From Bacteroidota bacterium (GTDB taxonomy: Bacteria > Bacteroidota > Bacteroidia > AKYH767-A > OLB10), in NCBI GenBank assembly GCA_016709725.1, contig JADJMG010000005.1, positions 387,544 to 451,543 on the forward strand: 64,000 nucleotides of DNA, given 5' to 3'. This document shows positions 9,286 to 64,000 of this stretch, piece after piece. The translations under genes and the position numbers were made by a program. The first letter of the stretch is position 1. Every line of letters starts with the position of its first letter. Under the pieces are notes generated by a model. That model had not been told where the DNA came from, did not search any database, and worked only from the letters and a program-made list of their open reading frames with translations.

Positions 9286-9379
9286 TTACTGTGTTCTGCG
9301 TAGGTGGTACTATATTTATTTAACTGCTTAAGATGTGAACGATGCATTAATCTCAACTTGAGCTTATGCATTGACCGAA

Positions 9380-9460
9380 GCAGAACTGTGTACTTCGAAG
9401 GCTGCGACCGAAGAAGTAGCGTGTACTTCGAAGGCAGCGACCGAAGAAGTAGCGTCCTCA
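9380..9460. repeat. tandem direct repeat, about 35 bp x 2.3 (gtacttcgaagg(c/a)(t/a)gcgaccgaagaagtagcg), 95-175 bp upstream of the litR start
   Basis: Directly visible in the sequence. Each unit contains the inverted pair cgaag/cttcg. Confidence 0.7.
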
Positions 9461-17030: not shown

Positions 17031-17125
17031 TAAGAATTAAGAATTAAGAATTAGGAATTAAGAATTAGGAATTAGGAATTAGGAATAAGGAATAAGGAAT
17101 AAGGAATAAGGAATTAATAACAACC
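17031..17125. repeat. microsatellite-like tandem repeat (gaattaa/ggaatta/ggaataa units)
   Basis: Visible run: agaattaagaattaagaattaggaatt...ggaataaggaataagg. Related gaattcagaatt(a/c)(a/t)gaatt blocks occur at 2915-2945, 3055-3080, 8365-8395, 51256-51290 and 51375-51415. Confidence 0.75.
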
Positions 17126-17634: not shown

Positions 17635-17784
17635 CTTTACTTTCCAATAAAAACTAAATTAATGTGACACATCAAAGATACTCTATCGGGAACAACCTGT
17701 GCTGTACAATGTACGAAAATAAAAAAGCCTCGTCTGATTCATGAAAATCGGATGAGGCTACCTTACTACTTCGCGGCCCCCAAA

Positions 17785-18158
17785 GGCCGGCCGCGGGGCC
17801 CCCCGCGGCGGGGGGGGGGGCCCCCCGCGGCGGGGGGGCCCCCCCCCCCCCCCCCCCGGCCCCGCCCGGGGGGCCCCCCCGCGCCGGCGCCGCCCCCGGG
17901 GCCCCCGGCGCGCCCCGGGGCCCCCCCCCCCGGCCCCCGGCGGCCCGCCCCCCCCCCGGGGGCGCGGCGCGGGGCCGCCCCCCCCCGCCGCCGGCCCCCC
18001 CCCCCCGGGGGGGCGCCCGCCCCCCCCCCCGCCCCGCGGGGGGGGGCGGGGGCCCGGGCCCCGGCGGCGGGGGGGGGGGCGGCCCGGGGGTGGGGGGGGT
18101 CGGCGGGGGGGGGCGGGGGGGCGGCGGGGGGGGCGGGGGGCCCCGGGGGGGGGCCCCT
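17785..18158. other. about 375-bp tract of essentially pure G+C (alternating G- and C-homopolymers), probable sequence artefact
   Basis: Only a couple of T and no A over about 375 bp in an AT-rich genome. The listed ORF 17752-18162 merely translates it as Pro/Gly/Ala/Arg. Confidence 0.9.
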
Positions 18159-18165
18159 ATAAACC

Positions 18166-49854: not shown

Positions 49855-50641
49855 AACTACATTATAGAATTATTGGTGAAGGAAATCCAGTTCTCCTTCT
49901 ACATGGATTATTTGGCATGAGTGATAATTTACAAAGCTTTGGTCGTCAACTTGCTGAAAAAATCACAAGGTGATTATTGTAGACCTTAGAAACCATGGAC
50001 AATCGCCGCACGATTCAGCACATTCTTACCAACTCATGGCAGATGACATCGTGGAATTGCTTCAAGAATTAAACTTGAGTAAAGTAGACATTATTGGGCA
50101 TAGCATGGGCGGAAAAGTAGTATTGAAACTTTTAAACGCGCACGCTGATAAAATAAATAAAGCGGTAGTCATCGATATTGCGCCTTGGTTTTATCCTATA
50201 CATCATCGTGAAATTCTAGATGCATTACTGGCGATCGACTTAACTGTAATCCGAACGCGTAAAGATGCAGAAAGAGCATTAGCGGAAAACATCAAAGACC
50301 AAGGAACCCTCTTCTTCTTACTTAAAAATTTATATTGGGCAGAACCGGATCAATTAGCATGGCGATTTAATTTACAAGTGCTCAATCAACACATTGAATT
50401 GATAGGTGAAGAAACATGGCCTTCAAAAATTATTTCTACTCCCATCCTTTTTGTCAGAGGAGAAAAATCAAATTACATTGATCCGTATCGCATGAATGAA
50501 ATTTTAAAATGGTTTCCGAATGCTGAATTGGCCGAAATTAAAAATTCGGGACATTGGGTACATGCGGAGCAGCCTGCGGCATTGCTGGAGGTGGTGGATG
50601 GGTATATTTCCCAACGTGGGGTTCCACAACGTGGGGTTTAA
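49855..50641 (+). CDS. alpha/beta hydrolase, frameshifted at an A6 run near 49960
   Basis: N-terminal MKLHYRIIGEGNPVLLLHGLFG continues in another frame into VIIVDLRNHGQSPH...GHSMGG. Confidence 0.7.
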
Positions 50642-51916: not shown

Positions 51917-52100
51917 ATTGATGCACCCATGATGCAAAATCGCCCAAAAGGGGATTACGCATGGCAGACACCATTCGATGCAGAAATCGCCCAAAAAGGC
52001 GATTACGCATCAGGGAAGCACGCGATTCGATGCAGAAATCGCCCAAAGGTGATTACGCATCAGGGCAGACCGTTATTCGATGCAGAAATCGTAATAATCG
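51917..52100. repeat. tandem repeat, about 50-52 bp x about 3.5 (attcgatgcagaaatcgcccaaaaaggcgattacgcatcaggg...)
   Basis: Contiguous units without spacers, each holding an imperfect hairpin (aatcgcc/ggcgatt, gatgc/gcatc). Located upstream of ssb and downstream of mutY. Confidence 0.7.
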
Positions 52101-54620: not shown

Positions 54621-56186
54621 GTGGACTATATTGATTTAAGGAATTTTGTAATCCTCCCATGCAAAATTATTAGGCTTCAAGATTTGAACAGCGAACTCAT
54701 TATTGATTCGTCGACTTCCGAGGTGCAAATTGCCCTTGTTGAAGACAAGCAGCTCGTAGAGTTAAATACAGAAAAAAAAGAAAAAGGATTTTCTGTTGGT
54801 GACGTCTACTTGGGCCGCGTGAAGAAACTTATGCCTTCACTCAACGCCGCTTTTGTAGATATCGGTTATGAAAAAGATGCTTTTCTCCATTACCTCGATT
54901 TAGGTACCCAGGTACAATCCCTCATCAAGTACATGAAGAATACACAAGCCGGCACACAAACCGATGGCTTGTTGAATAACTTCGAACTGGAAGCAGACAT
55001 CCACAAAGCCGGCAAAATCGGACAAGTGGTAAACACCAACCTAAACATCATGGTGCAGGTGGCCAAGGAACCCATCAGCAGCAAAGGTCCGCGCATCACC
55101 GCCGAACTTTCCTTTGCTGGGCGATTTGTAGTTTTGGTTCCCTTTTCAGATGTTGTTTCCGTATCTCAAAAAATTAAGAGCAGTGCCGAGCGACTTCGCC
55201 TAAAACGTTTAGCGACGAGTATCAAGCCCCGAAACTTCGGAATCATTGTTCGCACTGTTGCTGAAGGAAAAAAAGTTGCCGACCTCGACAGAGATGTGCA
55301 AGATTTAACTTCGAAGTGGACGGCTTTGCACGAACAATTAAAATCGGCCACACCACCTGCAAAACTCTTGGGTGAAATTGATCGCGCTTCCACCATCTTA
55401 AGAGATTTATTGAATGCAAACTTCAATGCCATTCATGTCAATGATGTTCGGGTTGCAGAAGAAATAAAAACGTATTTGAGAGGGATTTCTCCCGATCAAG
55501 TCGACATTGTAAAGTTGTACAAAGGCAAGTTACCCATTTTCGAAAACTTTGGTATCGACAAACAAATAAAATCTCTTTTTGGAAAAACAGTGAACATGGC
55601 TGGGGGTTCCTACCTCATCATTGAGCATACCGAAGCCATGCATGTGATTGATGTGAATAGTGGCGGCCGAAACAAAGGGGCATCCGACTCACAAGAAAAC
55701 AATGCGCTGCAAACAAACTTAATGGCGGCAAAAGAGATTGCCCGTCAATTTAGCATGCGCGATATGGGTGGAATCATCGTCATTGATTTCATCGACATGA
55801 AAAACACGGTGAATCGCAAAGCCTCCAACAAAATTTGGTCTTGTTCAAATCACACGGGAGCGTGTACGACCGGTTACCGATATCATTACCGTAGAGAAAT
55901 GTCCGGCCTGTGATGGAACGGGAGAAATTAAAGCCTCCTCCTTTTAATCGACGACATTGAAAATAATTTACGTTACCTCTGCGAAGAGCAAAACGAAAAA
56001 GGGTTAACCTTACAAACGCATCCTTTCGTAGCTGCCTTTTTAAATAAAGATTTTTGGAAATTCAAATCTTTCCAATGGAAATGGCGCAAGAAATATAAAA
56101 GCTGGGTAAAGATTGAACCCATCTCCTCCTTCCATTTAATGGAATTCCATTTTATGAATAAGCAAGGGGAAGTGATAAAGCTTTAA
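54621..56186 (+). CDS. rng: ribonuclease G (RNase E/G family), with 2 apparent frameshifts in the 3' quarter
   Basis: An S1 domain and the catalytic core (HVIDVNSG, DMGGIIVIDFIDM). The C-terminus ...VQITRERVRPVTDIITVEKCPACDGTGEIKASS / LIDDIENNLRYLCEE...FWKFKSFQWKWRKKYKSWVKIEPISSFHLMEFHFMNKQGEVIKL continues in other frames to the TAA at 56184-56186. Confidence 0.8.
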
Positions 56187-56380
56187 GTGCTTTTTTTCTT
56201 GGAAGCTTCCGCTTTCTACAATACCTATTTCTTGATCTTTAACTGCTATTCTTCGATGGATGGGGAGTTAGTACGTACTTGTACTTAGTGGGAACTTTTT
56301 GGTGGGGGTAGATGGGTGTTTGGTTGGTTTAAAAAGTATATTTGAGGAAAGCTAAGCATGAGTAAAGCCTCTGTCTAGGG
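56020..56380 (+). repeat. left copy of an about 330-360 bp direct repeat (covers the last about 45 codons of rng plus about 190 bp downstream); candidate att site
   Basis: About 85-90% identical to 59735-60100 (for example gattgaacccatctcctcc, ggtttaaaaagtatatttg). Confidence 0.7.
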
Positions 56381-56462
56381 ATGAGGCTTTACTTAATAAT
56401 CGCGAGGTAATAATATGTTACCTGCAATTTTTAGCGACAGTCCTAACTTGATACTTTAAGCA

Positions 56463-59400
56463 ATGAATAAAAACCGAATAGCAAATTTCTTAGGATTTCT
56501 GACAACTGCGACTATCACAGGAGTTGGACTTTCCATGACATCCAATCAGTTTGTTGGTGGAGCAATCATTGGGCTTGGTATTGAATTGGGTTCAGGTTTC
56601 ATTGAGTCAGTTTGCTCAAAACTCAAAAAGAATTGGACTAAAGAAAATTATGGACTTTTAAATCATGACATTCAAAAGTCATTACAACGAAGTATTGTGG
56701 CGGCTCTGAATGATATGCAGACAGAATGCCTTACAATGCCATTTGCACCTGACGAAAGAGAACCCATCAAAAACTTTTATGACAGTTTGATTAAGGAATC
56801 AAAAGAAGATTTCTTCCACAAGTATTTAGAAGATAAGAATGACAACATACTAAAAGATCTTATAAACAAAAACTCTTCAACCTTTGAGAAAGACATTACT
56901 GATGGAATCTACAACGAAGAATTACTTTCAACTTTCAGTTTGTCTTTTAAGCATTACTTCAAAGAAACTTTAGTAAAGAAATTACGGTTTTGGTTTACAG
57001 AAGATTTGAAGGGTGAAGGCGATGAAAATAAAAGAGCAAGAGTAGCGTATGAAAAAATTCTGTTGGAGAGCATTGAAAACACATTACAAGAGCAGTGCAA
57101 TAAAATAACATCTCTTCAAACCCAAGTGGGTTTGATTTTTGAAAATTCAATTAGAGCAATCAATGAAGGAAAACAATTCAAGAAACACTTCAAAAACTCT
57201 TTCCACAATTTCCTTCTTTTTCTTTAGTAACAATTCCGCAAGAGGAAAGTAACAACGCAGATAAATTCTATGACGGTTTCCCCCCGCAACTTGAAGATTT
57301 AAAAGCAAATTTTGATTTTCCAAGAAATCTTTATTTAAAAGATAGTGGAGTTAAGTCAAGAATAAACGAACTAACATCATCTGATGCACACTTTGTAAAA
57401 TTCATTCTGATAAAAGGAGTTGGGGGTAGTGGAAAATCTACATTGCTCAAAAGAATTTCGTTTGACCAAACAATAATTGGCAAGAATGTTTTTACCTAAA
57501 CAAAGATTGGTTTGAGGACAAACAAATCAACAAACTTCAAACTCAAATAAAACGACTTGCCGAATCTTATCCCGATTGTGTAATAGTACTTGATGACATT
57601 GCTGATTGTATTTTAAGAGAAGAAATAAATTTTCCCGAACTCATTAATTCACTAAGTTCAAAAAGGATTTTGTTTGTTCTTGCTGACCAACCTGACAGAT
57701 GGAACAGAGTAACTCCCAAGGTGAGGGAGCTAAATACAGCAGGACAACTTCTCTCATTCGACTTACACCAACTTGACGAAATTGAATGCGAAGATTTAGC
57801 GGATAAAATGATTGAACTTGAATCTGAGGAAAAACTTTCAATCAGACACCTTGAATTGACAAAGGAAGAACGAGTAAAACTTTGTAAGGAAAATTCTAAA
57901 AGACACTTTGTAGTCGCAATGCTGCAAATCCGATATGGTAAAAGGTTCAGCGATATTATAATTGAAGAATTTGAAAAAATACCATCAGAGAAAGGTAAAG
58001 AAGCATATCTGATGGTTTGCTTTTGCAATCATTTAGGACTTTCAATTCCTGAATCCATTGTTATCAGTGCTTTGCACTTAACATCTTCTCTTAGCATAAA
58101 TGAATTTCATTCCTACACGGAAGGAATCGTTATTTTCAGTAAGTATGGTTTATCTTCAAGACACCCAATAATAGCCCGTGAAATTATCCGCAACTTTGTC
58201 AAAACAAAATTGAATTTCATTTCAACCTAAAACAAATATTCTCCTCATTAGGTGAAAACAAAATAGAAGTTTCAGATTTCTTAGACAGCTTCTTATCAAA
58301 GGAAAATATTCACAAAACCTTAGCAAAGATATTAGAAAAGGACATTGTTTTAATTGAGGATATTATTCAGATAATAGAAAGCAAGAAACATCTTTTAGAA
58401 AAAGATTTGCTTATCAAGTTGATGAGTTTTTATGGAATGACTGAACGATTGATTGGAAATGACGAGAAGGCGTTAGAAATTTTCAAACAGATTATTAGTG
58501 AGATCGACAAGGGGTATTCTTTTTGCGTATCGGCAAATCGGCTGGATAGAACACGACAATCAGAACTATGATGAAGCTGCAAATTATGCGATTCAATCCT
58601 ATCAGTATTCAAATGAAAATCCCGAACACATTATTCAGATTGCAAAGCTTTTGGCTCTTAATACAGTTAAGAATTTTAGAGAAGCAAAAAAATATTATGT
58701 AGCAGCACTTGAAAAAAGTAACAAGGACAAGTATTACCAAGAAGAACTTGAAAAATATACTGATGCAGAAAATGCACTGAACTACTTTTCGCAGTTATAC
58801 GATGATGACTTCATTCCAGACGATATTATCAAAGCGCTAAGACCAGGACTTAACTTTTTCAGAATCTATTTTCACACTAATTCAAAAGAGTTTAAAAATA
58901 AACTCATCAATGTTCTTCATGGAATGGAAGGCGATACCAAGGGAAGCATTGAAGACCTTGACGCAGTTGTTGAAGGTTTCAACATCAAGAAAGACAAGTT
59001 AGTAAGTAGTAAATACTACGGCAATCTTGCACGAATTATGTATTTGGAGTGGTATAAAAATGAAAAAAATAATTGACCCTACTAAGATACTTGAGGTTTT
59101 CCAAACCAGTTTAACTTTAAATTCAAATGACCCATTTACTCATTGTTGGTTAGGAACATTCTATAAAGAAGTTTTGAAAGATTTTGTAACAGCAGAAGCC
59201 GAATACAAAAAAGCAATTGCCCTTTCAAAGAATTCTAAATACGAACATGACAAAGACCACCCACTCTTTTCAAATAATCTTGCTCTCTTGATTATGGATG
59301 AAGTGGTTGCTGACAAACTTCCAAAAGAAAAATTATTTGAGGCAAAATCTCTTTTAGATTTTTCTGTAAAAGTTAATACCGAAAAACAATCAAGTTTTTA

Positions 59401-59464
59401 TTGGGCAGAACATAATCTCTCAAAGTGTTTGGACTTAATTGACAGATATAAATTGACTTCGTAA
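56463..59464 (+). CDS. NLR-like STAND/NACHT-type NTPase (N-terminal glycine-zipper/helical domain, P-loop NTPase, helical region, C-terminal TPR repeats), split over 6 frame segments
   Basis: Segments 56463-57227, 57167-57499 (Walker A FILIKGVGGSGKSTLLKRI), 57457-58230 (Walker B CVIVLDDIADC), 58182-58568, 58498-59076 and 59027-59464 (TPR-like). The junctions overlap at A/T homopolymers. Confidence 0.6.
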
Positions 59465-59734
59465 CCTTGAATAAAATGACGAACACAACTCCGAACTTTC
59501 ATCTTTGTGGCGAGAGTAAAACTGCAGGTAACATGGGGTTTTCGATAGTGGGTGTTTCGTGCTCCGCAGACACATTTGTACAAGGTGGAATCCTGCCTGC
59601 CGGCATGCAGGTTCAGTTCCCCGCATGAGGATTAGAGTTAAGACTCATCATCATCGAACCTATTACAGAACCAATTGTTTTACTGTTACAGACTTACAAA
59701 ATGGACAGAGCAAATCGAAAAAAGCCCAACTCTC

Positions 59735-60100
59735 CAAACCAAGCCCTTCGTTGCTTCCATTTTGAAAACTGATTTTGGAAATTCAAATCTTTTCAATTGA
59801 AATGGTTCAAGAAATATAAAAGCTGCGTGAAGATTGAACCCATCTCCTCCTACCATTTAATGGAATTTCATTTTTTGAATAAGCAGGGGGAAGAGATAAA
59901 GCTTTAAGCGCTTTTTTTTCTTGGAAGTTTACGACTTCTACAATACCTATTTCTTATTTCTTAATTGCTATTTGTCGCCTGTGGCTATTTAGTACGTATT
60001 TGTACTTAGTGAAAACTTTTTGGTGGGGCTAAATGGGTGTTGGGTTGGTTTAAAAAGTATATTTGGGAAAGGGAAATGTGAGTTAAGCCTACAGACTAGG
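59735..60100 (+). repeat. right (diverged) copy of the direct repeat; still encodes an RNase G C-terminus-like peptide FWKFKSFQLKWFKKYKSCVKIEPISSYHLMEFHFLNKQGEEIKL
   Basis: Alignable to 56020-56380 at both nucleotide and protein level. Confidence 0.7.
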
Positions 60101-60181
60101 TAAGGGCAGGATAAACGAAATAGAAGTTCGGCATTAATACTTTAGATAATATTATAAAAAACCACAACCTGAAAGAAACGA

Positions 60182-62288
60182 ATGCATATTTCAAAGTTTA
60201 CAGCATTTAATTTTAGAAGTCTTAGACAAGTTGTTTCTTTACGATTTGAAGGTGGGAGAAATGTCATTGTTGGTAAAAACAATTCGGGTAAGTCGAATAT
60301 TATTAAAGGGATTGAAATTCTAATTGGCGAAAAATTTCCAACCTATATCAATTTCACAGACAACGATTTTTATACTTACGAGGCAGTTGATGAAGACACA
60401 GGAGAATTTCGAGAAGTTGTTTCAGACAATCTTTATTTAGAGGTTGAATTAGCAGGAAGAGATTTTGATGAAACTTTACTAAATACAATTAAAAAACAAA
60501 CCGCATTTTCAAGAGTAGAAAATTCCGCTTCTCTTTATCATAAACTAGAAAATGGAGAATTCAAAGCAAATTATGACTTCTTTCAAAGTCTTGACGACAT
60601 TGAGAGTAGGCCTGAAGTAATCGTTTGCGGCGAAAATCTAGGTGGAAGACAAAAGAAAACGGAATGGAAAAAACCTGAAAACCTCATTGCTTTTTTTAAA
60701 ATCAGCAAGGACAATCAAACTCTTTTTTTTGTAAATCCCGAACGGATGATGAAAAGTCAGGTTTCGGTTTGATTTGCGTTGATTCAAATGGATTAATTTG
60801 GGTATCACATTTCTTATCAAAAAAATTAAGAGATTCTTTAATTACAACAACTGTAATAAGTGCACTTCGTAGTCAAAAAGAAGATTTGAGATTGGTTCAT
60901 TATACATGGTTTGGAAAACTAATAAAAGGCTTATGGGAGGACAATAAAGCAAGCACTCATCCAACCGAACAAAAATCTTATGAGGAACTTATCAAATCAA
61001 AATCAATAGATATAAAGCGTTTCGTTGATGAGGTTTTTCGTAAGGATACTACTGAAATAAGAAAACTTTTAGAAGGTGCAATAGCTCATAAAGAAATTTC
61101 ATTCCGTTTTATGAATGATACAACAAATGAGTTATACAAAAATATTCAACTTTTTGTTAATGATGGAATAGATAGGCCCCTTTACGAAAAAGGAACAGGG
61201 ATTCAAAGTGCAATAATAATTTCTTTGTTTTCTCTGTATTGTAACGAGTATCATAATAATAGTTCTCTTTTAATTGCAGAAGAACCAGAGTTGTTCTTAC
61301 ATCCACAAGCAAGAAGAGTTATATCGGCCGAATTGGATAAGTTTTTAAATGGTTCTCAAGAACAACAACGCCAACTTATTATTAGTACACACTCTGTGGA
61401 GTATCTGAAAAATGTTGACCCCTTTAATATAATTCGTGTATATAAGGATAGTATCAATAATTGTTCGATAGTTAAACAACTTGACCAAGCAACATCTCAA
61501 CAAATCACAACAGAACTTAAGAGATTTCTTTGGTCGAACAATACGGAACTCTTTTTGCTGACAAGGTTGTCTTAGTTGAAGGAGGTGAAGTTTATTTAAT
61601 TCCATCAATAGTTGACAAATTAAAAGGTTTTAAACAATTATTAGACTATCAAAACATTACGGTTTCAAGAGTAAATGGTAAAGGAAGCTTTTTGACATAT
61701 GTTAAAATGTTACAATGCTTTGATATTGAATTTATTATACTAGGAGATTTAGATTGTTTTAAGGACGAAGTACCTAAACTAATTAAGCATTTAAAAATTA
61801 ATGCAATAATAGAAAATGCAGGGAAAATTAAAACTGCGATTTCTTCATTGCCAATTAGTTATGAAGCTATTGATGAACGAGTAAAGGGAGTTGATAGAAA
61901 CTATGATTCACAAACTCTACAAAGCCTTTTTGAAAAATTTGCAAGTGGAGAAATCGAAAAAGACAATGAAGATCTTCTTGCAATTATTCAATTTATGCAA
62001 TTACGTTACACTAAAGGAGATAAAGAAGAAGTGATTATTGAATCGGTTGGAGAAGAAGAATTTAACACTGTACTTTCAACTCTCAGAGACAATAACATTT
62101 TCATTTGGTCAAAGGGTGATCTTGAATGTTACTATTCAGACAAATCAAAAGCATTAAACGGAAGTAAAGACATCAAAGCACTTGAATTATCATATCTATT
62201 ACAGGTTGAAACAGAAAATATAGAAGATTTAATTCTACATCTTGACGAAGTAAAACAACTTATCGAAACGATATTGAAAAAAGAATAA
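60182..62288 (+). CDS. OLD-family ATP-dependent endonuclease (ABC-type ATPase + TOPRIM), split into 3 frames (60182-60772, 60769-61575, 61530-62288)
   Basis: N-terminal FNFRSL...VIVGKNNSGKSNIIKGIE (Walker A). Middle LLIAEEPELFLHPQARR (Walker B/D-loop) and ISTHS (H-loop). C-terminal KVVLVEGGEVYL and ILGDLD (TOPRIM E and DxD). Confidence 0.65.
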
Positions 62289-62455
62289 CATCAGCTAACA
62301 GCCGTTTAGCAAAAAAGGGGGGTTAGTGCTTGAATGTGTGCTACTAGACATTTAGTGCTTCGAAATCCGCTTCTTCGCCAAGCACCAAACCGTTATTTGT
62401 TATTATAGCAACCGCTGAACATATCTAACTTAGAAACAAAATTAAATTAAAATGT

Positions 62456-64000
62456 ATGTCTGTAGATACAAAAGAAATTGAGAAATTATTAGTAAAATCA
62501 TACAATGAAGGTTTCTCAAATTTAAATTTTAGCTATTTTGATTTAAGAGAAATTCCATTCTTTATTTTAGAACGCCCTTTATTATTAAATCAAAAGCGTA
62601 AAGATGGTTCAGATTCTGAAGAATATGAAAATTTGAATTTGGAGAAAGTACGAGAATTAAATTTATCTAATAACTATCTTACTCAAATAGACACAAAAAT
62701 ATCATGTTTTAAAGGACTTCAAACCTTAGATATTTCAAATAATAAACTAGAACAGCTTCCACGACAAATATGTGAACTTGGAAACTTAAAAGAAGTAATT
62801 GTCAATAACAATCCTCTAATTAATTTACCTCAAAAGTTTGCATCATTTCAAAAGCTTGAAATTCTTGATCTATCCAATACAGCGATTTATGAAATACCAA
62901 ACTATATTCAATATCTGTATAATTTAAAAGAACTAAATTTAGCTAATTGTAAATTAAGTGTACTACCTAAAAGAATTATACTACCTTCCAAATCTTAAGA
63001 TTCTTAACATTACAGGTAATCCACTCATTGACCCTCCTATTGAAATAGCCTCAAAGGGTATAGATTACGTAAAATATTATTATGACGAAATTGACTCTTC
63101 AATAGAAAAAGATTTCTTGTATGAAGTAAAACTTCTACTAATCGGTGAAGAAAGAGCAGGAAAATCAACCATTGCCGAATCACTATCAAATCCAAATTAT
63201 GAGTTTGATTTATACAAAAACAGCACACAAGGTATAGACATCAAAAAATGGACAATAAATCAAGATAAATTAAATATTGAAAAGGATTTTCAAGTCAATA
63301 TTTGGGACTTTGGTGGTCAGGAAATTTATCATGCAACCCATCAGTTTTTTTTTCACAAAACGTTCGTTGTATTTTCTAGTAACAGAGGCTCGAAAAGATT
63401 TAAGGCACGATGACTTATTTTATTGGTTGAATCTAATTGAGATTTTAGGAAACAATAGTCCCGTAACGATTTTAATAAATAAAAGCGACCAACCATATAC
63501 GTTCTTTGCAACAGATGCCTACCGAGAAAAATTTCCTAATATTTTAGGAACAAAAAACATTAGTTGCTTGCCCGAATACAAAAATACAATTGAAGAATTA
63601 AGAGAAGTAGTCTATTCAATATTGTCTAATAAAGATTTAATGCCTGATATTGGAGTTGAACTACCTAAGGTTTGGATAGATATTCGGAACGAATTAAATA
63701 GTATTAAAGATGCTGGAGTTTTTTATATTAAAACTAGTAGATACTTTTCAATTTGTAAAAAATTTGGAATGAATGAAGAAAGATCTCTTTTTTTAAGTGA
63801 CTACTTTCATGACCTTGGAGTATTTCTCCATTTCCAAAATGATTTAGTTTTAAAAGATACTGTTTTTTAAATTTTGAGTGGGTTACGAATGCGGTTTACT
63901 GCATACTCGATAATCCTAGAATAGTTTCTAATCATGGCTTCTTTAATGATACTGATTTAGAGATTATTTGGAAGAAAAACTATTATTTTGATAAAAGGTT
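62456..64000 (+). CDS. ROCO-type protein (LRR - Roc small GTPase - COR), fragmented by several frameshifts and running off the window
   Basis: LRRs (LxxLxLSNNxLxxLP, 62456-62998). Roc G1 KLLLIGEERAGKST, G3 IWDFGGQE (62958-63413) and G4 NKSD (63277-63870). COR-like sequence continues in another frame to 64000. Confidence 0.6.

What the first reader, a model, noticed from the sequence alone, without database searches (positions are those of the whole stretch)
56020..64000. Candidate composite defense island (NLR-like STAND + OLD nuclease + ROCO GTPase) at the rng hotspot, a possibly undescribed combination
Three large NTPase-based proteins are packed into about 8 kb of low-coding-density DNA, bounded and subdivided by repeats derived from the rng 3' end. 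All three are typical of immune or signalling systems. The region differs sharply from the flanking housekeeping genes. It fits the defense-island paradigm, and the specific juxtaposition of OLD and ROCO, and of a glycine-zipper domain with NACHT and TPR, is not a described system to my knowledge.
Basis: inference. Interest (0 to 1): 0.8.

Follow-up and report, generated by a model that had tools for sequence, protein, structure and literature searches.

The report
Mosaic defence island after rng
Downstream of the RNase G gene of an uncultured Bacteroidota bacterium lies a real, low-GC island of three intact, independently mobile immune-type genes (a STAND ATPase, an OLD nuclease and a ROCO GTPase ending in a calcium-uniporter-like channel); they look broken only because of sequencing errors and are not one combined system.

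Summary
The three genes exist and the domain calls are mostly right: nSTAND5 ATPase + TPR (not NACHT), OLD nuclease, LRR-Roc-COR GTPase. The "low coding density" is an artefact. An independent contig (L084) is 99.74 % identical over 7.7 kb and differs by 14 one-base indels, all in homopolymers. Three other assemblies agree with L084. There the genes are intact (1000, 701 and 890 aa) and coding density is 88 %. The rng-tail repeat is real: two ~395-nt copies, 84 % identical, bracketing only the STAND gene. GC is 32 % versus 38 %. The site after rng is variable: two of three close relatives carry other defence genes there. The trio is not a conserved system. In 6 OLD, 2 ROCO and 2 STAND homolog contexts, none keeps either partner, and each gene moves with under 70 nt of flank. 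OLD fits Class 1 stand-alone nucleases, now experimentally validated. LRR-Roc-COR proteins with variable effectors were already predicted immune sensors. The least expected feature lies beyond the window end: the ROCO protein carries an MCU-type pore domain with the WDxME filter, which I did not find described. Overall this is an ordinary mosaic defence island with one interesting component.

The parts
54621..56186 (+). rng (RNase G), the conserved gene that marks the left edge of the variable site. In the window it carries a 59-nt internal deletion after 55820 and a 1-nt C-run loss near 55934.
   Evidence: 87-99 % protein identity to rng in L001-L004. The alignment shows the 59-nt gap, and the CCC->CC loss is shared with L004.
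55985..56379 (+). Repeat copy R1: the native last ~200 nt of rng plus ~195 nt of downstream non-coding DNA. Synteny with relatives L003 and L004 ends at 56351-56366.
56463..59464 (+). Gene A, an NLR-like STAND protein (true length 1000 aa). It has an N-terminal ~210-aa helical module with a Gly-rich hydrophobic start, an nSTAND5 P-loop NTPase (Walker A GVGGSGKS at residue 319, Walker B VIVLDD at 374) and a C-terminal TPR-like array. In the window it is broken by five homopolymer indels (57170, 57497, 58210, 58524, 59069).
   Evidence: Intact 98 %-identical P0121; indels; Pfam; motifs; model and Foldseek TPR hits; recurrence of the N-module.
59465..59706 (+). Spacer between the gene A stop codon and R2. 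Its first ~67 nt travel with the STAND gene in other contexts; the rest is unique and has no RNA family match.
59707..60100 (+). Repeat copy R2, a diverged second copy (about 84 %) of the rng tail plus downstream DNA. The rng-derived 67 codons remain open through to the stop codon.
60182..62288 (+). Gene B, a Class 1-type OLD family nuclease (true length 701 aa). It has an ABC-type ATPase (GKNNSGKS at 31, EEPELFLHP at 366) and a Toprim domain (VLVEG at 463, GDLD at 521). In the window it is broken by indels at 60697, 60730 and 61556.
62353..62389 (+). Short intergenic element after OLD. It recurs after ROCO in L084 (8934-8962). Its role is unknown.
62456..64000 (+). Gene C, the 5' 58 % of a ROCO gene covering LRR, Roc (GEERAGKS at 230, DFGGQ at 284, NKSD at 341) and COR-A. 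It is broken by indels at 62969, 63345 and 63863 and cut off by the window end. The full protein (890 aa, L084 6166-8838) continues with COR-B and a C-terminal MCU-type two-TM pore domain (WDRME at 814).

Best explanation
The region is the start of a horizontally acquired mosaic defence island. It sits at a variable site immediately downstream of rng in an uncultured Bacteroidota genome whose assembly is rich in homopolymer errors. The island holds at least three independent single-gene immune modules. Each is an NTPase switch with its own sensor and effector. (1) The STAND protein: its C-terminal TPR array senses an invader-derived ligand, its nSTAND5 NTPase drives oligomerisation, and its N-terminal ~210-aa helical module with a Gly-rich hydrophobic start is the output, probably acting on the membrane. 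(2) The Class 1-type OLD nuclease: an ABC ATPase regulates a Toprim nuclease that cuts nucleic acid. (3) The LRR-Roc-COR protein: its LRRs sense, its Roc-COR GTPase switches the oligomeric state, and its C-terminal MCU-type pore then conducts cations across the inner membrane, stopping the infected cell. Shown here: the genes are intact, their catalytic motifs are present, their domain architectures are as stated, they are genetically independent, the site is variable, and the rng-tail repeat exists. Inferred: the ligand sensing, the effector actions and the anti-phage role of modules 1 and 3.
For: Genes intact. L084, L085, L086 and L081 agree against the window at all 14 homopolymer indels. 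Full-length homologs exist at 86 % for OLD and 98 % for STAND. All motifs are present. Architectures. Pfam finds nSTAND_NTPase5+TPR; AAA_15+OLD-TOPRIM; and LRR+Roc+COR-A+COR-B+MCU, all above their cutoffs. PADLOC's best model for gene B is Old at 155.9 bits. For the MCU tail, the top 13 hits against solved structures are all MCU channels, and the filter motif aligns. W-D/N-x-M-E..T-Y is conserved in six homologs. Independence. None of the 10 homolog contexts keeps a partner. DNA homology to homologs ends within ~70 nt of each CDS. Hotspot. Relatives L005-L020 share a conserved flank after rng, while L002, L003 and L004 each have unique cargo of at least 9.5 kb. In L003 and L004 that cargo is defence-type. 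GC is 0.322 versus 0.381. Literature. Class 1 OLD genes defend alone (PMC12392090, PMC13261556, PMC12445682). LRR-AP-GTPase-COR proteins with at least 24 alternative C-terminal effectors are predicted counter-invader systems (PMC8195603). The STAND N-module sits at the N-terminus of many different STAND+TPR proteins, which is the effector position.
Against: There are no functional data for any gene. PADLOC (2023 models) does not recognise the STAND or ROCO proteins or the five genes that follow. One ROCO-MCU homolog sits among ordinary metabolic genes, so a non-immune signalling role is possible. The STAND N-terminal module is modelled with low confidence (pLDDT below 50 for residues 1-45 and 207-249), and its hydrophobic segment is marginal. 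The island's right boundary and any recombinase were not seen. L002 carries metabolic genes at the same site, so the site is not exclusively a defence hotspot. The rng-STAND junction itself is spanned only by the window's own assembly, because the short-read contigs break inside R1.
Confidence: 0.75

Rival explanations
1. The three genes (or OLD + ROCO) form one composite, previously undescribed defence system whose parts act together.
For: The genes are co-oriented and tightly packed. The same order is kept in L084 and L081 from other samples. A shared 46-nt element follows both OLD and ROCO.
Against: Those copies are 99.7-99.8 % identical, so they represent one lineage and are not independent conservation. 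Six OLD contexts at 74-85 % identity, two ROCO-MCU contexts and two STAND contexts all lack the partners. None of the 80 rng loci holds a homolog of any of the three. The intergenic gaps are 717 and 167 nt. Each protein already has its own sensor, switch and effector.
Confidence: 0.06
2. The island is a decaying remnant: the frameshifts are real, and the genes are pseudogenes in this strain.
For: There are 11 frame breaks in ~7 kb of coding DNA, about three times the density seen in the neighbouring housekeeping genes. That excess is not explained by homopolymer content (10.1 versus 8.4 runs of at least 5 per kb). rng also has a 59-nt deletion that is not a homopolymer error.
Against: All 14 differences from four independent assemblies are +/-1 in homopolymers, against only 6 substitutions in 7.7 kb, with no in-frame stop codons. 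The same window has frameshifts in housekeeping genes and a 385-nt block of G/C noise. An identical CCC->CC loss occurs in another 'tig' assembly. Real decay would add substitutions and stop codons.
Confidence: 0.04
3. The island arrived by site-specific integration at the 3' end of rng. R1 and R2 would be att-type repeats marking tandem accretion of two elements: the STAND cassette, then an OLD-ROCO element.
For: The direct repeats are made of the target gene's 3' end plus downstream DNA and bracket a cargo segment. GC is low. The same junction is used by different cargo in relatives. The rng-derived part of R2 keeps an open frame with no indels across 32 substitutions, hinting that it evolved inside a working rng elsewhere and was imported. 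One OLD homolog does ride an integrase-bearing element.
Against: No integrase or other recombinase lies in the 13 kb seen. The repeats are ~395 nt at 84 % identity, unlike short identical att cores. Relatives with other cargo have a single rng tail. The STAND gene elsewhere carries no such repeat and shares only ~42 and ~67 nt of flank. Homologous recombination in flanking core genes, the usual route for defence-hotspot turnover, explains the data equally well.
Confidence: 0.2
4. The ROCO-MCU protein is a housekeeping signalling or ion-homeostasis protein (a regulated cation channel) and is not an immune gene.
For: The Imperialibacter homolog sits alone among lactate and sugar metabolism genes. 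PADLOC gives no match. Bacterial Roco proteins studied so far have no assigned immune function (PMC6337361, PMC11052575).
Against: In the window's lineage it lies inside a low-GC island beside OLD and STAND genes, and its 69 % homolog lies beside a TIR-domain gene. The wider family swaps its terminal domain among TIR, CHAT and EAD-type effectors, the pattern described for conflict systems (PMC8195603). Its distribution is patchy.
Confidence: 0.25

Closest known systems
Class 1 OLD family nucleases (P2 Old, Thermus scotoductus OLD, Vibrio cholerae OLD, E. coli YbjD)
   Same: [quoted passage not shown] It has no helicase, retron or split AriA/AriB partner. PADLOC's best model is 'Old'. It occurs as a lone gene in several homolog contexts.
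   Different: It is ~700 aa, against a 578-position Old model, with an extra ~50 residues after the match. Here it lies inside a defence island, whereas the review describes Class 1 genes as typically not near other defence genes (PMC10568477). It is only distantly related in sequence to the characterised members.
Bacterial LRR-AP-GTPase(Roc)-COR conflict proteins (Kaur et al. 2021) and Chlorobium tepidum Roco
   Same: It has N-terminal LRRs, a Roc GTPase with G1, G3 and G4 motifs, COR-A and COR-B, and a variable C-terminal domain in the effector position.
   Different: The C-terminal domain is an MCU-type two-TM channel. The effectors named in that paper's text are TIR, DRHyd, caspase, trypsin, FGS, GT4 and EADs. 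I found no paper linking Roc-COR and MCU. C. tepidum Roco has no effector domain.
Mitochondrial calcium uniporter pore subunit (MCU, PF04678)
   Same: The Pfam match is above threshold. The layout is coiled coil, TM1, W-D-x-M-E, TM2, coiled coil. It aligns directly to solved fungal, nematode and metazoan MCU chains, with the filter motif in register.
   Different: It is bacterial, fused to a ROCO GTPase, and lacks the MCU N-terminal domain and any MICU1 or EMRE partner. The filter reads WDRMEQ here against the canonical WDIMEP (the canonical form is from my own knowledge). Ion selectivity is unknown.
Bacterial NLR-like antiviral STAND proteins (Avs, bNACHT) with N-terminal membrane-targeting Bell/HeLo-like domains
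   Same: The architecture is tripartite: N-terminal module, STAND NTPase, C-terminal TPR. The N-module is helical with a hydrophobic Gly-rich start and is shared among many different STAND+TPR proteins.
   Different: The NTPase clade is nSTAND5, not NACHT or NB-ARC. There is no PADLOC Avs match. The N-module is ~210 aa, not ~100, and lacks the acidic residue at position 2-3 and the 'MEPIS'-type start described for Bell domains. The family is very small, with 11 hits among 5.8 billion proteins.
Defence islands and integration hotspots flanked by core genes
   Same: The cargo is low-GC and differs between close relatives at the same core-gene junction. Much of it is defence genes, and each is a self-contained module.
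   Different: A ~395-nt diverged duplicate of the core gene's tail lies inside the island. No recombinase has been seen so far, and one relative carries non-defence cargo.

Membership tests
OLD family nuclease, Class 1 | N-terminal ABC-type ATPase with Walker A and an EEPE..LHP-type Walker B | tested here: met
   AAA_15 at 119 bits over residues 1-404; GKNNSGKS at 31 and EEPELFLHP at 366.
OLD family nuclease, Class 1 | C-terminal Toprim domain with a conserved Glu and a DxD motif | tested here: met
   OLD-like_TOPRIM at 53.9 bits; VLVEG at 463 and GDLD at 521.
OLD family nuclease, Class 1 | Stand-alone gene: no adjacent UvrD/PcrA/Rep helicase (Class 2), no RT or ncRNA (Class 3), not split into AriA/AriB (Class 4). 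Definitions from PMC10568477. | tested here: met
   No helicase or RT gene next to OLD in L084, L082, L083, L091 or L095. No retron RNA by Rfam. ATPase and Toprim are in one ORF.
OLD family nuclease, Class 1 | Nuclease activity and anti-phage activity | not testable with these tools
   Needs biochemistry and phage assays.
STAND NTPase / NLR-like receptor | Central STAND-clade P-loop NTPase | tested here: met
   PF25199 nSTAND_NTPase5 at 45.9 bits (cutoff 34); Walker A and B present.
STAND NTPase / NLR-like receptor | C-terminal superstructure-forming repeats (TPR) | tested here: met
   The Pfam TPR matches are sub-threshold. The model shows a helical-repeat array over residues 560-1000 at pLDDT 75-94, and the top Foldseek hits are TPR superhelices.
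   No NACHT hit. The best hits are nSTAND_NTPase5, and a weak NB-ARC match on a fragment.
Avs / known antiviral STAND systems | Match to a curated defence-system model | tested here: not met
   PADLOC v2.0.0 gives 0 families for the intact 1000-aa protein. The newer Avs11-21 and the 589-clade scheme (10.64898/2026.01.04.697583) could not be searched.
Glycine-zipper membrane domain | Repeated GxxxG in a membrane-spanning helix, or a match to the Pfam Gly-zipper families | tested here: inconclusive
   Two GxxxG motifs (at G33 and G39); one 19-mer window at KD 1.42; no Pfam Gly-zipper hit; pLDDT below 50.
Bell / HeLo-like cell-death domain | A ~100-aa helical bundle with an N-terminal hydrophobic helix and an acidic residue at position 2-3 ('MEPIS'-type start) | tested here: not met
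   The domain is ~210 aa and starts MNKNRIANF, with no acidic residue at positions 2-3. No Bell HMM was available, so remote homology was not tested.
ROCO protein | Roc GTPase followed directly by a COR domain | tested here: met
   Roc 86.3 bits, COR-A 123.1 bits and COR-B 117.1 bits, in that order; G1, G3 and G4 motifs intact.
MCU (PF04678) channel | Family match above the curated threshold | tested here: met
   51.8 bits against a cutoff of 30.8, covering residues 718-874 and profile positions 26-177 of 177. phmmer hits to 13 solved MCU chains.
MCU (PF04678) channel | Two TM helices joined by the acidic W-D-x-x-E filter motif | tested here: met
   TM1 at 790-815 (KD 2.05), WDRME at 814, then a second hydrophobic helix. 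W, M, E and T are invariant, and D is present in 5 of 6 homologs.
MCU (PF04678) channel | Oligomeric pore that conducts cations or Ca2+ | not testable with these tools
   Needs electrophysiology or flux assays.
Defence island / hotspot | Different cargo at the same core-gene junction in related genomes, enriched in defence genes | tested here: met
   Synteny ends at 56351-56366. L002, L003 and L004 each have unique cargo. L003 and L004 carry defence-type domains and L002 does not.
Integrative element | A recombinase gene plus att repeats at both ends | tested here: inconclusive
   Repeats R1 and R2 are present, but no recombinase lies in the 13 kb seen.

The most novel reading that the evidence does not exclude
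The LRR-Roc-COR-MCU protein is a single-chain immune sensor. A ROCO GTPase switch would gate or assemble an MCU-type cation pore in the bacterial inner membrane to abort infection. That would give bacterial MCU homologs their first functional context, add an ion-channel output to the ROCO/LRRK2 family, and suggest that the mitochondrial uniporter pore derives from a bacterial conflict-system effector. A second, smaller novelty is the unannotated ~210-aa N-terminal module (near-invariant LNHD motif) shared by 86 clusters of STAND+TPR proteins, which may be a new cell-death effector domain.
Probability: 0.3. Interest if true: 0.75.

Novelty: new member of a known kind. Interest (0 to 1): 0.35.

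Why it matters
For genome scanning, the main lesson is cautionary. A striking 'low-coding-density, pseudogene-like' island was produced by homopolymer errors in a long-read-style assembly, and the apparent three-gene 'system' is a chance neighbourhood of independent modules. Biologically, the locus documents the rng 3' junction as a variable cargo site in one Bacteroidota genus. It also adds intact examples of a Class 1-type OLD nuclease and a rare nSTAND5-TPR receptor. Finally, it surfaces a small Bacteroidota subfamily in which a ROCO GTPase is fused to an MCU-type pore carrying the uniporter's filter motif. If that fusion is a GTPase-controlled channel, it would interest researchers working on bacterial immunity, on LRRK2/ROCO mechanism and on the origin of the mitochondrial calcium uniporter.

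Tried and rejected
(1) tRNA/tmRNA and Rfam scans of the window, the repeat region and the L084 tail found nothing credible. There is therefore no tRNA-type attachment site and no retron RNA.

(2) A search for a third rng-tail repeat found none in the window, in L084 up to 13175, or in the relatives.

(3) Two metagenome scans returned 0 hits. One used a pattern from the last L084 gene and the other a conserved rng stretch. An exact look-up of the neighbouring 346-aa window protein returned no record. Neither the island's right boundary nor the 59-nt rng deletion could be checked independently.

(4) Viral-contig scans with OLD, STAND and the ROCO C-terminus found no relatives, so there is no evidence of phage carriage.

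(5) The STAND structure model had only moderate confidence (pLDDT 67.9, pTM 0.45). Foldseek returned generic TPR hits plus a loose SAMD9 match at TM ~0.3, which was not used for classification. A sequence search of P0121 against solved structures gave 0 hits.

(6) Homopolymer density was tested as the explanation for the island's higher error rate and was insufficient: 10.1 versus 8.4 runs per kb.

(7) A codon-position analysis of R2 gave differences of 9, 8 and 15 by position, and 10 synonymous against 15 non-synonymous codons. That only weakly suggests an imported origin and is not decisive.

(8) Promoter and terminator scans were at chance level.

(9) Bell/HeLo membership for the N-module was considered and rejected on the published sequence hallmarks.

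(10) P0137's context was not on record.

Full report
OBSERVATION. Between 56 and 64 kb, every large reading frame on the + strand is split into consecutive pieces in different frames. The pieces carry clear domains:
- 56463-59464: a P-loop NTPase of the nSTAND type plus TPR.
- 60182-62288: AAA_15 ATPase plus OLD-type Toprim.
- 62456 onward: LRR plus Roc GTPase.

A long direct repeat brackets the first gene. Aligning it with the rng genes of relatives shows that both copies consist of the last ~200 nt of rng plus ~195 nt of downstream DNA. R1 lies at 55985-56379 and R2 at 59707-60100, and they are about 84 % identical. GC is 0.322 in the island and 0.381 upstream, lower than any upstream 7.6-kb window.

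THE FRAMESHIFTS ARE ASSEMBLY ERRORS. Homolog searches with stitched proteins found intact full-length relatives. For OLD these are 699-701 aa at up to 86 % identity, plus a 465-aa protein at 99 % that spans two window fragments. For STAND there is a 1000-aa protein at 98 %. The contigs that encode them include the same DNA as the window.

- L084 (NCBI JAHZTJ010011589.1) matches window 56292-64000 at 99.74 %, with 6 mismatches and 14 single-base indels.
- All 14 indels lie in homopolymer runs, at window positions 56458, 57170, 57497, 58210, 58524, 59069, 59777, 59919, 60697, 60730, 61556, 62969, 63345 and 63863.
- L085 and L086 (two Logan runs) and L081 (an ENA metagenome) agree with L084 against the window at every indel they cover.
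- In L084 the genes are 1000, 701 and 890 aa.
- All catalytic motifs are present, and 88 % of the region is coding.

The window shows other signs of a poor assembly:
- Frame changes in housekeeping genes near 49960, 51590, 53958 and 54250.
- A CCC->CC loss in rng shared with L004, another 'tig' MAG.
- A 385-nt block of G/C noise at 17775-18160.

The error density in the island is about three times that of the adjacent 10 kb, and homopolymer content does not explain the difference. Poorer polishing of a strain-variable segment is a plausible cause, but that is inference only.

WHAT THE GENES ARE.

Gene A. Pfam places the NTPase in nSTAND_NTPase5, above threshold, and not in NACHT. The structure model and Foldseek show a C-terminal TPR-like array. 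The N-terminal ~210 residues are helical with a Gly-rich, marginally hydrophobic start. A full-library search shows that this module sits at the N-terminus of 86 protein clusters. There it is fused to several different STAND-type NTPases plus TPRs. That is the position effector domains occupy in NLR-like proteins. It does not show the published hallmarks of Bell/HeLo domains. The gene A family itself is tiny, with 11 hits.

Gene B. This is an ATPase-Toprim OLD nuclease. PADLOC's best model is Old. No helicase, retron or split partner accompanies it in any context, so it fits Class 1 as the review defines it. Class 1 OLD genes have recently been shown to defend on their own (PMC12392090, PMC13261556, PMC12445682).

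Gene C. This is LRR-Roc-COR-A-COR-B. Beyond the window end it carries a C-terminal domain that matches the mitochondrial calcium uniporter family at 51.8 bits against a cutoff of 30.8.
- The sequence reads TM1, then TWDRMEQFTY, then TM2.
- The W-D/N-x-M-E..T-Y motif is conserved in the five other MCU-tailed homologs, and one of them reads WDIME.
- A plain sequence search against solved structures returns MCU channels as its top 13 hits, with the filter motif aligned.

Bacterial LRR-Roc-COR proteins are numerous and swap terminal domains among TIR, CHAT, EADs and kinase. Kaur et al. predicted this class to be counter-invader sensors with at least 24 alternative effectors. MCU is not among the effectors named in the text, and I found no paper linking Roc-COR with MCU. 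One MCU phylogeny includes bacterial sequences without discussing them.

IS IT ONE SYSTEM? No. The trio is found together only in near-identical copies of this lineage. Elsewhere each gene keeps different company:

| Gene | Homolog identity | Neighbours |
|---|---|---|
| OLD | 85 % | cNMP-binding and flavodoxin genes |
| OLD | 81 % | ResIII, methylase and HNH genes |
| OLD | 77 % | inside an integrase-bearing element |
| OLD | 76 % | housekeeping genes |
| ROCO-MCU | 69 % | a TIR-domain gene |
| ROCO-MCU | 53 % | lactate and sugar metabolism genes |
| STAND | 90 % | AbiEi/AbiEii and helicase/MZB genes |
| STAND | 82 % | genes of unknown function |

None of the 80 rng loci contains any of the three genes. 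DNA homology to these homologs stops within ~33-70 nt of each coding sequence. Each protein already combines a sensor, an NTPase switch and an effector.

THE rng SITE. In relatives L005-L020, rng is followed by a conserved gene set. In L012 and L015 a single T9SS-secreted protein gene is inserted first. In the three closest relatives the 9.5 kb after rng is unique to each.
- L003 carries SIR2-like, DNA methylase, GmrSD and AAA_15 fragments.
- L004 carries an AAA_21/AAA_15 ATPase, PRTase-CE and NADAR.
- L002 carries ordinary metabolic genes.

Synteny between the window and L003/L004 ends at 56351-56366, the end of R1. The junction is therefore a genuine variable site, often but not always loaded with defence genes.

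How cargo enters is unresolved. R1 and R2 resemble att-type duplications of a target gene's 3' end. However, they are long and diverged, no recombinase lies in the 13 kb available, the relatives have a single rng tail, and the STAND cassette elsewhere lacks the repeat. R2 keeps an open rng-like frame with no indels, a weak hint that it was imported with foreign DNA and not duplicated locally. The right end of the island could not be reached.

MECHANISM. The architectures, intact motifs, independence and variable locus are shown here. The rest is inferred by analogy with characterised STAND, OLD and ROCO proteins and MCU channels.
- The STAND protein would sense a ligand through its TPRs, oligomerise through its NTPase and activate its N-terminal module.
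- The OLD nuclease would cut nucleic acid under ATPase control.
- The ROCO protein would convert LRR sensing, through its GTPase-dependent oligomeric switch, into opening or assembly of the MCU-type pore.

VERDICT. The feature is real, but it is an ordinary mosaic defence island seen through a poor assembly. The proposed composite system is not supported. The most interesting residue is the ROCO-MCU fusion, followed by the unannotated STAND N-terminal module. Both are worth experimental follow-up, but they are single-gene curiosities and not a new multi-gene system.

Noticed in passing
window 17775-18160: About 385 nt of almost pure G/C homopolymer noise lies between two - strand genes in a 38 % GC genome. 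All six frames are open there. It is a sequencing or assembly artefact.
   Followed up: partly
window 55820/55821 (rng): The window's rng lacks 59 nt that L001-L004 all have. Together with the 1-nt C-run loss near 55934, this puts 38 codons out of frame. It is not a homopolymer error. Whether it is a real deletion or a mis-assembly could not be verified.
   Followed up: partly
window ~49960, ~51590, ~53958, ~54250: Frame changes occur in housekeeping genes upstream of rng when compared with the intact orthologs in L001 and L002. The homopolymer-type errors are therefore not confined to the island.
   Followed up: partly
window 62353-62389; L084 6065-6093 and 8934-8962: A ~46-nt element (TAGTGCTTCGAAAxCCxCTTCTTCGCCAAGCxCCAAA, with a GTGCTT/AAGCAC inverted repeat) follows both the OLD and ROCO genes. 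It occurs nowhere else in the window or in the 94 fetched loci. Its function is unknown.
   Followed up: partly
L084 9021-13014: Beyond ROCO the island continues with five more + strand genes: a multi-TM protein of 323 aa, an overlapping pair of 364 aa plus a 114-aa DUF4325/STAS-like protein, a TM protein of 205 aa, and a lipoprotein-like 270 aa. None matches PADLOC or NCBIfam. They could be further uncharacterised defence modules.
   Followed up: partly
L084 13100-13175: The locus ends in a GC-rich stretch unlike the AT-rich island. It has no Rfam match and no match in any fetched locus. It may be the start of the native flank or of another element.
   Followed up: partly
STAND protein residues 1-~215 (window 56463-57167): This unannotated N-terminal module has a near-invariant LNHD motif (N67, H68, D69). 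It is found at the N-terminus of 86 protein clusters with varied STAND NTPases and TPRs. No Pfam family covers it.
   Followed up: partly
L087 4579-14290 and L088 4379-14045: The 90 %-identical STAND gene there is followed by AbiEi/AbiEii, two unknown genes, a 1357-aa Helicase_C protein and an MZB (DUF1998-like) protein. This may be a DISARM-like cluster in another defence island.
   Followed up: no
L002 (CALQEU020000001.1): The record is titled 'MAG: Bifidobacterium breve', yet it carries an rng locus 98 % identical in protein to this Bacteroidota window and is syntenic with it. The bin appears to be taxonomically mislabelled.
   Followed up: no
window 51931-52091, 17034-17116, 9373-9455: Three tandem repeats: 50 nt x 3.3 copies, GAATTAG x 12 copies, and 33 nt x 2.5 copies. 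All are intergenic or near gene ends.
   Followed up: no
L081 1-118: The first 118 nt of this scaffold do not match the window, although the rest is 99.84 % identical. The OLD gene is therefore truncated at that contig's start. This may be a chimeric contig end or a strain variant.
   Followed up: no
model m67efb9f8a1b7 against PDB: The only long NTPase+TPR structural match of the STAND protein is human SAMD9, an antiviral STAND-like NTPase, at TM ~0.3. This loose resemblance was not used for classification.
   Followed up: no
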